A stretch of DNA of 64,000 nucleotides from an uncultured Phascolarctobacterium sp. (GTDB taxonomy: Bacteria > Bacillota > Negativicutes > Acidaminococcales > Acidaminococcaceae). The translations under genes and the position numbers were made by a program. The stretch lies in NCBI RefSeq assembly GCF_900544795.1, contig NZ_UQWM01000001.1. The stretch is one strand, 5' to 3'. Below are positions 60,778 to 64,000 of this stretch, one piece after another (position 1 is the stretch's first letter; every line of letters begins with the position of its first letter). The notes under the pieces were generated by a model. It did no database searches, was not told the origin of the DNA, and saw only the letters and a list, made by a program, of their open reading frames with translations.

Positions 60778-61128
60778 ATGATCGTAACAGAGAGAAAAAC
60801 AGACGTCTTTAACCAACGCGCAGGCGGCAAAGGCGAAACCATTATGGAACACATCGTGGACGAAAAGCTTTACGGCGGCAAGATCATCACCTACGCCCGC
60901 GTCATTTTAAAACCGGGCTGCTCGCTGGGGCTGCACAAGCATGTAGGTACCAGCGAAACCATGTACCTGCTACAGGGCACCGGACTTTATAACTATAACG
61001 GCAAGGAAAGCACGCTGCACGCAGGCGACGTAACCTTCTGCCCCGAAAACGAAAGCCACAGCATCGAAAACATCGGCAACGACGACCTGATGATCATGGC
61101 GCTCATCGTCAACACAAAAGAAGAATAA
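60778..61128 (+). CDS. Cupin-domain protein
   Basis: Cupin motifs (G-x5-H-x-H: SLGLHKHVGTSE; later HAGDVTFCPENESHSIEN). RBS GAGGGAGGG. Confidence 0.7.
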   Translation: MIVTERKTDVFNQRAGGKGETIMEHIVDEKLYGGKIITYARVILKPGCSLGLHKHVGTSETMYLLQGTGLYNYNGKESTLHAGDVTFCPENESHSIENIGNDDLMIMALIVNTKEE

Positions 61129-61139
61129 CAGGAAGAACA

Positions 61140-61180
61140 ATAAAAAACAACACGCAAAATGCGTGTTGTTTTTTTGTTGC
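61140..61180 (+). terminator. Rho-independent terminator
   Basis: acaacacgca-aaa-tgcgtgttgt hairpin followed by T-run. Confidence 0.75.
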
Positions 61181-61210
61181 CTAGCAGTATTATAGGAACG
61201 TAGAAATAGC

Positions 61211-62494
61211 TTAAAATTCGAACCTCAACCCGGCGTTGATGCTCCACTTTTTGTTGATGTCGCCGCCAAAGCCGCGGGTCACCTCGCCGTAGAAATTACC
61301 GGTCTTGCTGATTTTGACGTTGCCGCCCAGGCCCAGCTCAAACCAGGTATCGCCGTAATCGTTGTGTTTAGTTAAAATATCGTTCGTACCGCCTGCGTCC
61401 GAGGTCAGCTGCAAGTCGCGCTCACCGGCAAATTCATGCAGCAGGTCGGCCTTCAGGTAAATATCGCTGCCACCAGTCACCTTCTGCCCCAGCACAAAGC
61501 CGATGCGCCCGATAGCGCTGTTCATGCCGTCGATGTGGCCGTTGGCACCCCGATCGGTGGTGTAGCTGATGCCACCCAACCTGCCTAAAGTGAATTGGGC
61601 GTTAGGCTCGAAGAACAGGCCGCTCTCCAAATCCAAACGCTTGCCGTATTCCACGCTGACGCTGTAGGCATGCTCTTTGTATGCGGCTTTATCCGGGAAG
61701 TCGCCGTAGGATTCCAAATCGGTCGACACGATGCCGTAGCGGGCCGTAACATTGGTATAAGTACCGCTATCGCCAGTCCACACGCCGTACAGGCTCAAGG
61801 TTTTTAGCTTGTCCTTGCCACTGCCATTATCATAGCTGCCAGTGCCATCGCCATAATCCATAGCCACGCCGTAAATGCTGTTGGCGTTGGTGGCCTTGTC
61901 GTAGCCAAACTGGTACATATTGTAGCGGCCTTCGTAATTATTACCGCTAAAGCGGCCCGCCTGGGTACGCGCCCACACGCCGTCGCTTTGCTCGCTGCCG
62001 CTGGCCAGCGCGCCCAAACGGCCGCGCAGGCTATCGTTAGTATTGCGCCACAGGGCATAGCTGTTATCGGCCGCATCCAACAATACTGCTGTATCGTTAT
62101 TGACAGTTTTAGCCAGCTTTGTCAAATACCATAGTGAGCCGTCCTGCTCCAGGGTCGGGTCAACATCCCATAGGCCGCCAAAATTGGCCTTTGCTCCCGT
62201 AAAGGTCAGCTTGCCGCTGTTATCGGTAACCAAAAGCAGCTTGTGGGCGCCGGTCACTTCCGTACCGTTAATACTGCTCAAATCCCTAACGGAAATACCG
62301 TAGCTGCCCGTGCCAGTGTTGCCACCGCCCACCGTCAGCGTATCACCAGTATTATTGGCCAGGTCAGTATCCATCAGCAGCTTGCCGCCGCTGCCCTGCA
62401 AGTCGCTTACCGTCAGGCTTTGGTAGGTAGGCGTTGCCCCAACACGCACGCTGCGGCCAAATGTATAGATGAAAGCACATACCTTTAAATACAA
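61211..62494 (-). pseudogene. Autotransporter beta-barrel translocator domain with a short passenger remnant; 5'-truncated (no signal peptide)
   Basis: C-terminus ...WSINAGLRFEF typical of autotransporter beta domains. Gly/Thr/Ser-rich passenger repeats at the N-terminus. The frame is closed 13 codons upstream, with no signal peptide. Confidence 0.6.
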
Positions 62495-62495
62495 A

Positions 62496-62522
62496 ACACC
62501 GACTGCAATGCAGCCGGTGTTT
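62496..62522. repeat. 27-bp hairpin repeat, copy 1 (aacaccgactgcaatgcagccggtgtt)
   Basis: 24 of 27 identical to the copy at 63689..63715. Followed by T-run. Confidence 0.7.
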
Positions 62523-62614
62523 TTATATTTCAGTTAAGATATTGTTTTCACAGCTGTATGTTACACTAACTGCTCTGTTGCATTATGATAACTACACTAT
62601 TTCTTTTAAAGCCA

Positions 62615-63565
62615 TTACCAGTGCAAAAAGTTGATTACTACCTGAATCATAATCTCTTTATCTTCCGGTCTTGATTCGGCTATCATCAATGTTATAGCAA
62701 CAATCGCGCTATCACTGATGATTTTTTTCTGTTCTTTATAAAGCACTTTGTTTTTATCAAGAAAATATAAAAACAAGCCGGCGGCAATTCTTTTACAGCC
62801 GTCGTTAAAAGGATGATCTTTAATAAGAAAGTACAAAAGATGGGCTGCTTTCTCTTCTAATGTAGTATAAGCATCCTTCCCACATACGCTTTGATAGACA
62901 GCTGCTAAAATACCCTGCAGTTTACCATGTTCTTTTTCCTGTCCGAAAATATCAGAAGTTTTACTGAAATCCATCCGCCTGATGAAGTCTACGCATTCCG
63001 TTTCCTGCAATATATATATACACTCACTACCTTCAGGAACAATTACACACTGATGATCATAGGCGTCAAGCAATTCCAACGAGCGGGAATACTCCTGCAC
63101 TACCCGCAACACCTCGTCTGATTCTATACTATTGGTGCTGGCAATGATATGCGACTGAATGGCTATAGTTTTATTTAAGGCAGCTAATTTCTTTTCATTA
63201 ACTGCATAACCGTCAATAATATATTGTTTTAAAACATTAGTCGCCCATTTACGAAAGGCGATGCCCCGTTTACTGTTTACGCGATAGCCAACGGAAATGA
63301 TCACGTCGAGATTATAGCTTTTTTGCTTTCTTCTAACAACTCTTTTTCCTTCTTGACGAACCTGTAAGAAATCCTTACAAGTTGACCGCTCTTCCAATTC
63401 ATCATTGTAAATATTCTTTAAATGCATTGTAATATTTTGTGCAGTAGTTTGAAATAACTCTGCCATCTGCGCTTGCGTCAACCATACTGTATCCTCATCA
63501 GGCGCAATATTTACTTCTAATTCCAAACCATCATCTTGAAAGATGATAACATTATTATCAAGCAT
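62615..63565 (-). CDS. RhuM-family virulence protein fused to a Fic/Doc-family domain
   Basis: N-terminal RhuM-like region (LDVIISVGYRVNSKRGIAFRKWATNVLKQY). C-terminal Fic-type motif HPFNDGCKRIAAGLF. AT-rich relative to its neighbours. Confidence 0.7.
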   Translation of the reverse strand: MLDNNVIIFQDDGLELEVNIAPDEDTVWLTQAQMAELFQTTAQNITMHLKNIYNDELEERSTCKDFLQVRQEGKRVVRRKQKSYNLDVIISVGYRVNSKRGIAFRKWATNVLKQYIIDGYAVNEKKLAALNKTIAIQSHIIASTNSIESDEVLRVVQEYSRSLELLDAYDHQCVIVPEGSECIYILQETECVDFIRRMDFSKTSDIFGQEKEHGKLQGILAAVYQSVCGKDAYTTLEEKAAHLLYFLIKDHPFNDGCKRIAAGLFLYFLDKNKVLYKEQKKIISDSAIVAITLMIAESRPEDKEIMIQVVINFLHW

Positions 63566-63688
63566 TTATCCCATCTCCTCAGTCATTGGCTATCAACTTA
63601 TATATAGCATTTACGGCACTTTTTAGAATTATATTTGTTATAAAAATTATCGCAGCAGCAATATTGACGTCGATATAATACTTACACA

Positions 63689-63715
63689 AACACCGGCTGC
63701 CTTGCAGCCGGTGTT
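63689..63715. repeat. 27-bp hairpin repeat, copy 2 (aacaccggctgccttgcagccggtgtt); also the terminator of the MATE gene
   Basis: Perfect 11-bp stem. Direct repeat of the copy at 62496..62522. Confidence 0.7.
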
Positions 63716-63730
63716 TGATTTATTGCGTTT

Positions 63731-64000
63731 TTACACTTGTTCGCGTGCCAGCTTCCGTTGCAGCCACAGCATCCGCAGGGTCAAAAACACGGCCGAGAAG
63801 AACAGGCCGATATCGAGGCTTTGCCAATAGGCCACAGGCCCATGCCCCATAACGAAATCTAAAAAGCAGCCCAGGGGCAGGCATACTACCCAATAGGCGA
63901 AAAAACCGGAATAAAAAGTGGCTTTAACATCTTTATAGCCGCGCAGGATGCCCTGGATAGGGGCCGCTGTAGCGTCGAATAATTGGAAGAAAATGGCGTA
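63731..64000 (-). CDS. MATE-family efflux transporter, C-terminal 89 codons (partial at window edge)
   Basis: Minus-strand frame open to the window edge, ending ...LWLQRKLAREQV*. Hydrophobic TM segments consistent with a MATE C-terminus. Confidence 0.5.
   Translation of the reverse strand, partial: YAIFFQLFDATAAPIQGILRGYKDVKATFYSGFFAYWVVCLPLGCFLDFVMGHGPVAYWQSLDIGLFFSAVFLTLRMLWLQRKLAREQV

What the first reader, a model, noticed from the sequence alone, without database searches (positions are those of the whole stretch)
62496..63731. RhuM/Fic gene bracketed by 27-bp hairpin direct repeats, next to a 5'-truncated autotransporter
Two near-identical hairpin-forming 27-mers (62496..62522 and 63689..63715, 24 of 27 identical) flank the AT-rich RhuM/Fic-family gene, 1.2 kb apart. 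The upstream copy doubles as the terminator of a MATE gene. The downstream copy abuts the start of an autotransporter ORF that lacks a signal peptide and most of its passenger domain. The arrangement is consistent with insertion of a Fic cassette at a terminator hairpin with duplication of the target, accompanied by deletion of the autotransporter 5' end. No integrase or transposase is present, so the mobilisation mechanism is unclear.
Basis: partly seen in the sequence, partly recalled or inferred. Interest (0 to 1): 0.6.

Follow-up and report, generated by a model that had tools for sequence, protein, structure and literature searches.

The report
Fic defence gene inserted at terminator
A foreign, AT-rich single gene (a RhuM/Doc-type candidate anti-phage toxin) was inserted just behind the terminator of a transporter gene in a gut Phascolarctobacterium-like bacterium, copying that terminator to its far side. 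The broken autotransporter next door comes from a separate later deletion, so this is a fairly ordinary but well-documented gene-insertion scar.

Summary
Two stable 27-nt hairpins (24/27 identical) lie 1194 bp apart and occur nowhere else in the 64-kb window. They bracket a low-GC RhuM-N/Doc-like Fic gene.

Comparative data support an insertion. A sister lineage has MATE followed by one orthologous hairpin and no Fic. Three other lineages have MATE directly facing the cupin gene.

The upstream copy is the native MATE terminator. About 38-50 bp was duplicated.

The arrangement is not recent or private. Every contig of this species that spans the site carries Fic, or a deletion derivative, between the same hairpins.

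The autotransporter truncation is a separate event. Other strains share Fic, both hairpins and 37 further bp, then carry different genes. The window's junction looks like a microhomology (ATACATT) deletion from a roughly 990-aa autotransporter operon that is intact in the sister lineage.

The gene matches PADLOC candidate PDC-S23 over its full length.

Homologues elsewhere are mostly solitary insertions. A minority are bracketed by locus-specific 36-90-bp (one 315-bp) repeats: a different terminator, a tRNA-Gly 3' end, a gene 3' end. One lies next to an integrase.

The insertion mechanism is unresolved. I favour integrase-type integration with later loss of the recombinase.

The parts
63731..64000 (-). 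3' end of the MATE efflux gene. It runs off the window; the stop codon is at 63731-63733.
   Evidence: Translation. The region is 100% identical to the complete 451-aa MatE gene of L001.
63687..63717 (-). Upstream hairpin H_up (27-mer 63689-63715). This is the native MATE intrinsic terminator and the left copy of the direct repeat.
   Evidence: It is orthologous to the single hairpin in the Fic-free sister lineage L111.
63646..63673 (-). Promoter-like site for the Fic gene: TCGACG, 16-nt spacer, TG-GATAAT.
   Evidence: Consensus scan. This is inferred, not shown.
62522..63688 (-). Low-GC inserted cassette lying between the two hairpins.
   Evidence: GC is 0.33-0.41. The segment is absent from L109, L110, L111 and L124.
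62615..63565 (-). RhuM-N / Doc-like Fic gene, 316 aa. It matches the PADLOC phage-defence candidate PDC-S23.
   Evidence: Pfam. PADLOC E = 3.7e-123 over the full length. The profile hits the Doc structures 9vzc and 3k33. The motif HPFNDGCKR is invariant in 23 homologues.
62493..62523 (-). Downstream hairpin H_down (27-mer 62495-62521). This is the right copy of the repeat and the likely terminator of Fic.
62458..62492 (-). Segment after the hairpin that is shared by all structural variants of the locus. It partly resembles the sequence after the single hairpin in L111 and ends in the ATACATT deletion junction.
61211..62457 (-). 3' remnant of an autotransporter gene: the C-terminal part of the passenger plus the beta-barrel. 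It is probably a pseudogene.
   Evidence: Pfam. It aligns to residues 288-711 of the 711-aa P0146. It is 75.6% nt identical to the 3' part of the >=975-aa autotransporter of L111.
61142..61174 (.). Perfect 15-bp-stem hairpin between the autotransporter remnant and the cupin gene. It marks the right edge of the variable region.
   Evidence: Homology to the other variants resumes at 61128 or 61159.
60778..61128 (+). Cupin gene, the conserved right flank. In the basal arrangement it directly faces MATE.

Best explanation
What it is. The 1.17-kb low-GC segment is a horizontally acquired one-gene transcription unit. It has a promoter-like site and a RhuM-N/Doc-like Fic gene.

How it got there. It was integrated immediately 3' of the native MATE terminator in the ancestor of this Phascolarctobacterium-like species. 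The event left about 38-50 bp (the terminator hairpin plus short flanks) as a direct repeat on both sides.

What the hairpins do now. H_up still terminates MATE. H_down terminates Fic, and in other strains it also terminates a convergent sigma-factor gene. The two copies exchange sequence by gene conversion.

The autotransporter. The cassette is fixed in the species and sits at the edge of a gene-flux region that once held an autotransporter-glycosylation operon. In the window's strain a later, independent deletion removed everything from 37 bp past H_down to the middle of the autotransporter. That deletion probably used ATACATT microhomology.

Mechanism of insertion (inferred, about 0.45 of my belief). 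I favour tyrosine-integrase-type integration of an element that carried the gene next to its att site, so the repeats are attL/attR-like. The recombinase part was later lost, or the recombinase acted in trans.

Protein function (inferred from family membership). It is probably a single-protein abortive-infection-type toxin, with a Doc-like kinase domain controlled by the N-terminal RhuM domain.
For: Shown:
- The repeat, its uniqueness in the window and its stability.
- The low GC of the cassette.
- A single orthologous hairpin without Fic in L111-L113. Window homology ends just after the hairpin, at 63684.
- MATE directly facing the cupin gene in L109, L110 and L124.
- Both hairpins present in all Fic-bearing contigs, whatever follows them.
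- Variants share sequence up to 37 bp past H_down.
- Variant B is a 752-bp microhomology deletion derived from the window's arrangement.
- The autotransporter is intact (>=975 aa, with a signal peptide) in an HTH / TibC-like / methyltransferase / autotransporter operon in L111.
- H_up is identical to H_down in L003 (37/38 bp) and nearly so in L006.
- The protein belongs to PDC-S23 and is Doc-like.

Supporting the integrase-type route:
- Homologues are bracketed by a 36-bp tRNA-Gly 3'-end repeat (L091) and by an 85-bp copy of the 3' end of a TauE gene (L108).
- A 78%-identical copy lies directly upstream of a tyrosine integrase in an IMG/VR contig.
- About 5 of 80 homologue loci have an integrase relative within 4 kb.
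Against: - No recombinase lies in or next to the cassette in any contig of this species.
- No conserved sequence or terminal inverted repeats occur at cassette ends across loci.
- The closest homologue (87% aa) sits at a different locus, between duplicated terminators of a completely different sequence. An integrase model explains this only by assuming separate element lineages or separate decay events.
- Immediate neighbours of 124 homologue flanks are almost all unrelated housekeeping genes.
- The single hairpin in L111 could be a scar of precise loss rather than a never-occupied site.
- The simple terminator scan did not call either hairpin on the minus strand, because the T-run is absorbed into the stem or interrupted.
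Confidence: 0.7

Rival explanations
1. Recombinase-independent duplicative insertion. A break or a stalled fork at the palindromic terminator was repaired by copying foreign DNA and re-priming upstream of the hairpin (template switching or microhomology-mediated repair). This would create a target duplication of variable length.
For: - Repeat lengths differ widely between loci: about 38-50, 41, 36, 85, 86 and 90 bp.
- The repeats are always local sequence.
- There is no conserved cassette end motif and no recombinase nearby.
- In L003 the repeat is 37/38 identical with fairly sharp edges.
- Two of the targets are perfect hairpins.
Against: - The tRNA 3'-end and gene 3'-end targets are classic integrase sites.
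- One close homologue lies next to an integrase.
- I know of no direct precedent in bacteria (from memory).
- Repeat copies are 10-18% diverged in several loci.
Confidence: 0.3
2. One reading: one event inserted Fic at the hairpin and at the same time deleted the 5' end of the autotransporter.
For: In the window the downstream hairpin lies only 37 bp from the start of autotransporter homology.
Against: - Variants C, D and E have the same Fic, both hairpins and the 37 bp, followed by other genes (sigma factor, HTH, methyltransferase or restriction-modification islands).
- Neither variant A nor variant C can be derived from the other, so both come from a fuller ancestor.
Confidence: 0.05
3. The hairpins belong to the mobile unit itself. 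They would be ends of a hairpin-recognising element, such as an IS200/IS605-type palindrome-associated element or integron attC sites, mobilised in trans.
For: The two hairpins are in direct orientation at both ends of a one-gene unit, and there are no terminal inverted repeats.
Against: - H_up is orthologous to the terminator of MATE in a lineage that lacks the cassette.
- The 87%-identical homologue has entirely different hairpins.
- The stems are perfect and short, with no attC core motifs (GTTRRRY / RYYYAAC) or extrahelical bases (seen directly in the sequence).
- The hairpin pattern occurs only 5 times, singly and in unrelated contexts, in 185,579 species genomes.
Confidence: 0.03
4. There is no insertion-linked duplication. 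The two hairpins are independent terminators that look alike by convergence, by membership of a genome-wide repeat family, or by gene conversion alone.
For: - Gene conversion between the copies does occur.
- Similar hairpins occur as ordinary terminators in unrelated genomes.
Against: - There are 0 chance matches in shuffles and only 2 copies in 64 kb.
- Similarity extends beyond the stem into both flanks.
- Bracketing repeats recur at homologue loci (4/59 against 0/140 control genes).
Confidence: 0.03

Closest known systems
Phage 'morons': autonomous promoter-gene-terminator units inserted between genes (concept of Hendrix and colleagues, recalled from memory)
   Same: A single accessory gene with its own promoter-like site and terminator. 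Its base composition deviates from the flanks, and it is inserted at a gene boundary without disrupting the neighbours.
   Different: This unit is chromosomal rather than in a prophage. It is bracketed by a duplicated copy of the neighbour's terminator, and morons are not defined by flanking direct repeats. Full-length homologues are rare in phage records (1 of 53 hits).
Integrase-less, att-flanked islets: cis-mobilisable elements (CIMEs) of streptococci and cargo-only modules in tRNA-linked islands such as tycheposons (from memory)
   Same: Flanked by direct repeats derived from the 3' end of the target, with no recombinase in cis. They sit next to other island material. One homologue (L091) sits in a tRNA-Gly 3' end with a 36-bp repeat.
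   Different: Here the repeat is a protein-gene terminator hairpin. The content is one gene only, no cognate integrase is identified, and mobility has not been shown.
pdif modules of Acinetobacter plasmids (from memory)
   Same: Small gene modules bounded by ~28-bp partly palindromic sites and lacking their own recombinase.
   Different: pdif sites are conserved XerC/XerD-binding sequences. Here the bounding sequence is locus-specific and differs completely between the window and L026. It is also the neighbour's terminator.
P1 Doc toxin / Fic-Doc family
   Same: The C-terminal domain hits PF02661. It hits TIGR01550 DOC_P1 below its cutoff and Doc crystal structures by profile. The motif HPFNDGCKR aligns with HIFNDANKR of Doc.
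   Different: There is no Phd-type antitoxin gene. The domain is fused to an N-terminal RhuM domain, and Cys replaces the motif Asn in all 23 aligned homologues.
PADLOC phage-defence candidate PDC-S23, and RhuM-DOC fusions noted in R-M neighbourhoods (Anantharaman et al. 2013, PMC3710099)
   Same: Full-length HMM match. [quoted passage not shown]
   Different: Here the gene is solitary and not embedded in an R-M operon. Defence activity is untested.

Membership tests
Fic/Doc (PF02661), Doc-like branch | Domain model match above the curated cutoff | tested here: met
   40.7 bits against a cutoff of 24. The A1 profile hits Doc structures 9vzc (E = 3.8e-4) and 3k33.
Fic/Doc (PF02661), Doc-like branch | Catalytic motif HxFx(D/N)(A/G)NKR | tested here: inconclusive
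   The motif is HPFNDGCKR, with Cys in place of the Asn. It is invariant in 23 homologues. The consensus motif is quoted from memory.
Fic/Doc (PF02661), Doc-like branch | Adjacent Phd-type antitoxin gene | tested here: not met
   Only 117 nt of non-coding DNA and the hairpin lie upstream. No small ORF partner is present in any locus.
RhuM (PF13310) | Match to the family model | tested here: met
   86.6 bits against a cutoff of 33.7. However, only profile positions 1-70 of 252 match, so only the N-terminal module is present.
PADLOC PDC-S23 (candidate single-gene defence) | Full-length HMM match | tested here: met
   E = 3.7e-123, residues 3-315.
PADLOC PDC-S23 (candidate single-gene defence) | Protection against phage | not testable with these tools
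   Needs a phage challenge experiment.
Rho-independent terminator | GC-rich stem-loop shortly after a stop codon, followed by a U-run | tested here: inconclusive
   Stems of 12-14 bp at -25 kcal/mol, starting 16 nt after the MATE stop. The tails are UUUGUGU (H_up) and UUUUGUAUUU (H_down). The simple scan called H_up only on the plus strand.
Type Va autotransporter | Signal peptide plus passenger plus C-terminal beta-barrel | tested here: not met
   The barrel is complete and the Pertactin domain is partial. About 290-575 N-terminal residues are missing compared with P0146 and the L111 autotransporter. This is a remnant, not a functional member.
Integron cassette / attC | Imperfect 57-141-bp attC site with RYYYAAC / GTTRRRY cores and extrahelical bases, and a nearby integron integrase | tested here: not met
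   The hairpin is a perfect 27-31-nt palindrome without these cores. No integrase relative is in the window.
Genome-wide palindromic repeat (REP-like) | Many copies per genome | tested here: not met
   Two copies in 64 kb and two per 17-kb related locus. There are only 5 single unrelated hits in 185,579 species genomes. The whole genome of this organism was not available.
IS200/IS605-type hairpin-ended element | The hairpins are part of the element and travel with it | tested here: not met
   H_up is present without the cassette in L111. The closest homologue has different hairpins.
Classical transposon | Terminal inverted repeats and a short target duplication of fixed length | tested here: not met
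   There are no terminal inverted repeats. Repeat lengths range from 36 to 90 bp across loci.
Integrase-mobilised islet (att-flanked) | Direct repeats made of the 3' end of the target | tested here: met
   The repeat is the MATE terminator plus its flanks.
Integrase-mobilised islet (att-flanked) | Cognate integrase in cis, or demonstrated excision | tested here: not met
   There is none in any contig of this species. Excision is not testable here.

The most novel reading that the evidence does not exclude
RhuM-N/Doc single-gene cassettes may be an unrecognised kind of recombinase-less mobile unit. They would insert at 3' boundaries of genes, terminators and tRNAs and duplicate 36-90 bp of local sequence, which would explain how a stand-alone defence gene spreads to hundreds of unrelated housekeeping loci.

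Evidence so far:
- Seven independent loci have locus-specific bracketing repeats.
- In the 600-bp flank test, 4/59 homologue loci scored high against 0/140 neighbouring control genes (Fisher p about 0.007).
- 119 different Pfam families occur among 124 immediate neighbours.
- There is no conserved end motif.
Probability: 0.2. Interest if true: 0.7.

Novelty: new variant of a known kind. Interest (0 to 1): 0.4.

Why it matters
- It is a clean natural example, with occupied and empty sites, of how a single candidate anti-phage gene enters a bacterial chromosome. The gene lands behind a terminator, and both the host gene and the newcomer end up properly terminated.
- It shows that the neighbouring autotransporter pseudogene is a product of ordinary island decay.
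- Single defence genes are often found without any mobile-element signature. If the recurrent locus-specific flanking repeats reflect a distinct insertion route, that would bear on how such genes move.

Tried and rejected
- Hairpin pattern across one genome per species: only 5 unrelated single hits. The one Acidaminococcaceae hit is the terminator of an unrelated transporter. So this is not a repeat family, but the scan also did not recover this species' own genome.
- Rfam at a permissive threshold on 61000-64000: nothing near gathering scores.
- PDB sequence search with the single protein: no hit. Only the profile reached the Doc structures.
- Literature searches for PDC-S23 and for terminator duplication at insertions: nothing relevant.
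- Conserved motifs or inverted repeats at cassette ends across six repeat-bracketed loci: none.
- Possible extension of the repeat into the last ~30 nt of MATE: only about 50% identity in AT-rich sequence, so I judged it not significant.
- L088's 315-bp repeat contains a small hydrophobic ORF and looks like a pre-existing repeated module rather than a target duplication.
- A possible 25-bp repeat around an integrase-plus-Fic unit in L038 scored 17.5, which is within the control range.
- The exact 122-aa cupin ORF was not on record. The 116-aa version was.
Full report
**Observation**

All genes at this end of the window read on the minus strand. In order they are:
- MATE (stop codon 63731-63733)
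- hairpin H_up (63689-63715)
- a 316-aa RhuM/Fic ORF (63565..62615)
- hairpin H_down (62495-62521)
- a 427-aa autotransporter ORF (62494..61211)
- a perfect hairpin (61142-61174)
- a convergent cupin gene

The two 27-mers are 24/27 identical, or 26/29 when extended, and lie 1194 bp apart. They are the only matches in 64 kb at up to 3 mismatches, and none appeared in 100 shuffles. Each folds into a 12-14-bp stem at about -25 kcal/mol, with z near -6. The segment between them has GC 0.33-0.41, against 0.50-0.57 outside.

**What the genes are**

The Fic ORF combines the first 70 positions of the RhuM model with a Fic/DOC domain. Evidence on its family:
- It matches the PADLOC phage-defence candidate PDC-S23 over its whole length, E = 3.7e-123.
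- It reaches TIGR01550 (Doc of P1) below that model's cutoff.
- As a profile it hits Doc crystal structures.
- Its motif HPFNDGCKR is invariant in 23 homologues, with Cys where Doc has Asn.
- Anantharaman et al. (PMC3710099) noted that RhuM-like domains are often fused to DOC and proposed a toxin role in defence loci.

The autotransporter ORF has a complete beta-barrel and part of a Pertactin domain. It aligns to residues 288-711 of a 711-aa homologue, starting at its residue ~10. Names attached to homologues of the autotransporter and of MATE point to Phascolarctobacterium (Acidaminococcaceae).

**The locus in the same species**

Exact-protein look-ups returned about 20 gut-metagenome contigs that are 99-100% identical in the flanks. 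In every one that spans the site, Fic or a truncated Fic lies after MATE. In all ten loci retrieved through Fic, both hairpins are present. What follows differs between strains:
- **Variant A:** the 427-aa autotransporter remnant, as in the window (L006/L015, an independent sample).
- **Variant B:** a 752-bp deletion joining Fic codon ~147 to the autotransporter remnant through ATA(T/C)ATT microhomology (L012-14, L016-19).
- **Variant C:** a sigma-70/ECF-like gene on the opposite strand, an HTH gene and a methyltransferase.
- **Variants D and E:** the same sigma gene followed by islands. These carry an Eco57I-like enzyme or a 1688-aa helicase/nSTAND protein, plus a primase fragment and an excisionase-like gene.

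Variants A, C, D and E are identical up to 37 bp beyond H_down (...CATCTATACATT) and then diverge. So the first ~12 codons of the "autotransporter ORF" are not autotransporter sequence. The truncation is also not tied to the hairpin. The junction heptamer ATACATT would encode the Y-T-F that precedes the conserved FGRS, and so is probably native autotransporter sequence. This suggests a microhomology deletion (inferred).

**Sister lineages: empty sites**

MATE orthologues at 87-90% aa identity were traced to contigs.
- In L109, L110 and L124, MATE is followed by a single lineage-specific terminator and then directly by the convergent cupin gene.
- In L111-L113, MATE is followed by one hairpin, AACTCCGGCTGtttagaAGCCGGAGTT. 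Next come 260 bp and an intact operon: HTH, a TibC-like glycosyltransferase, a methyltransferase and an autotransporter of at least 975 aa with an N-terminal signal region.
- Nucleotide homology between the window and L111 runs through MATE and the hairpin to 63684 and then stops. It resumes inside the autotransporter at 75.6% identity.
- The alignment shows that the L111 hairpin and its flanks are orthologous to H_up on the left. On the right they resemble the sequence after H_down at least as well as the sequence after H_up.

From this I conclude three things. H_up is the native MATE terminator. Fic is an insertion (or indel unit) bounded by the repeats. About 38-50 bp was duplicated. Strictly, L111 could represent precise loss by recombination between the repeats. 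Either way the cassette is the unit of change.

In L003 the two copies are 37/38 identical, and L006 also has an H_down-type upstream copy. Most contigs differ at 3-4 positions, and the pattern does not follow the island variant. This indicates gene conversion between the copies, or a once-perfect duplication.

**Is the hairpin a repeat family or an element end?**

A scan of one genome for each of 185,579 species found only five single, unrelated occurrences. The one Acidaminococcaceae hit is an ordinary terminator of a different gene. The hairpin has none of the attC hallmarks, and there are no terminal inverted repeats. The closest non-identical homologue (P0002, 87% aa, 81% nt over the coding region only) lies in a different genome between an unrelated ORF and a DUF401 gene. 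It is also bracketed by a duplicated terminator, 41 bp long, but of entirely different sequence (AAAAAAGGCCGGACTGTTAAGTCCGGC...). So the repeats come from the target and not from the cassette.

**Survey of homologues**

Eighty metagenome loci with 48-66% identical homologues were fetched. With 600-bp flanks, 4 of 59 testable loci had bracketing repeats scoring at least 30. None of 140 neighbouring control genes scored 18 or more (my Fisher estimate is about 0.007). The bracketed cases are:
- a 36-bp repeat of the 3' end of tRNA-Gly, with only Fic inside (L091)
- an 85-bp copy of the 3' end of a TauE gene (L108)
- a 90-bp structured repeat (L085)
- a 315-bp repeat that looks like a pre-existing small-toxin module (L088)
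- an 86-bp repeat around P0005 (L120)

No motif is shared by cassette ends. The immediate neighbours of these genes fall into 119 Pfam families among 124 ORFs and are mostly housekeeping genes. Only a few are IS110 transposases or serine recombinases.

On the other hand, a 78%-identical, frameshifted copy lies directly upstream of a tyrosine integrase in an IMG/VR contig, beside MazF-like and repressor-like genes. About five of the 80 loci have an integrase relative within 4 kb, and the window has none. In phage records the N-terminal domain is common but the full-length protein is rare.

**Interpretation**

Shown:
- a foreign one-gene unit lies behind the MATE terminator with the terminator duplicated
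- it is fixed in the species
- the autotransporter truncation and the other variants are later, independent rearrangements of a decaying autotransporter operon and island hot spot

Inferred:
- Both hairpins act as terminators.
- The protein is a Doc-like toxin used in defence.

The insertion route is unresolved. I favour an integrase-type event, in which the gene rode next to the att site of an integrative element whose recombinase part was later lost or which acted in trans. The reasons are that tRNA and gene 3' ends are typical att targets and that integrase-linked relatives exist. A repair or template-switch duplication at the hairpin remains a serious rival. It is supported by the variable repeat lengths, the lack of end motifs and the absence of recombinases at nearly all loci.

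**Verdict**

The links to the autotransporter deletion and to recency are not supported. The case is a well-resolved example of a known type of event with one less ordinary feature: recurrent, locus-specific bracketing repeats around a recombinase-less single defence gene. That feature deserves a systematic survey.

Noticed in passing
L111:8830-14472 (also L112, L113): A sister lineage carries an intact operon after MATE: an HTH regulator, a TibC-like (TibC_1st + Glyco_transf_9) glycosyltransferase, a Methyltransf_21 protein and an autotransporter of at least 975 aa with an extended signal region. This suggests a glycosylated autotransporter adhesin system in a Phascolarctobacterium-like Negativicute. 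The window's remnant and variant C are decay products of it.
   Followed up: partly
L003:9100-16951 / L011:9497-18351; L020:9075-17922: In other strains the space between Fic and the cupin gene holds alternative islands. One carries a 1342-aa ResIII + Eco57I-type enzyme with unknown 316-, 321- and 587-aa proteins. Another carries a 1688-aa helicase/nSTAND/DUF559 protein. Both have a primase fragment and an HTH_17 excisionase-like gene, inserted into the HTH_3 gene. The site is a defence-island hot spot.
   Followed up: partly
window 63218 and 62460-62466; L012-L014, L016-L019: Variant B is a 752-bp deletion through ATA(T/C)ATT microhomology. It fuses the first ~147 codons of the RhuM/Fic gene to the autotransporter remnant. 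It is the commonest arrangement among contigs sharing the window's cupin allele, so Fic is often inactivated in this sub-lineage.
   Followed up: yes
window 61142-61174: A perfect 15-bp-stem, A/T-flanked hairpin (AAAAAACAACACGCA-ttt-TGCGTGTTGTTTTTT) lies between the autotransporter remnant and the cupin gene. Homology to all other locus variants resumes at or just inside it, so it marks the right edge of the variable region.
   Followed up: partly
L091:1592-2751: A 1.05-kb insert containing only a RhuM/Fic homologue and its own terminator sits in the 3' end of tRNA-Gly(UCC). It has a 36-bp direct repeat and lies between a hydrolase and a thioredoxin gene, with no integrase.
   Followed up: partly
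L088:48-362 and 1701-2020: A 315-bp direct repeat (~93% identical) flanks a Fic homologue. Each copy contains a promoter-like site, a terminator and, on the opposite strand, a small hydrophobic ORF (MSTYETLSLMIAFGVLVVMIIGT...) that resembles a type I toxin module.
   Followed up: no
L127:3048-7156 (IMG/VR UViG_3300017814_000152): A frameshifted RhuM/Fic copy (78% identical in the best segment) lies between a MazF/PemK-like gene and a tyrosine integrase at the end of a viral contig.
   Followed up: partly
L001:2180-4479 (just beyond the window's right end): Upstream of MATE, all related contigs carry a HerA/DUF87-type ATPase followed by a barnase-barstar (Ribonuclease/Barstar) pair and an ABC-F protein. 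This block is conserved even in the Fic-free sister lineages.
   Followed up: no
window 62615-63565 (residues 251-259): The Fic/Doc motif reads HPFNDGCKR, with Cys at the position of the usual Asn. It is invariant across 23 homologues down to 58% identity, so this is a conserved variant of the Doc active-site loop.
   Followed up: partly
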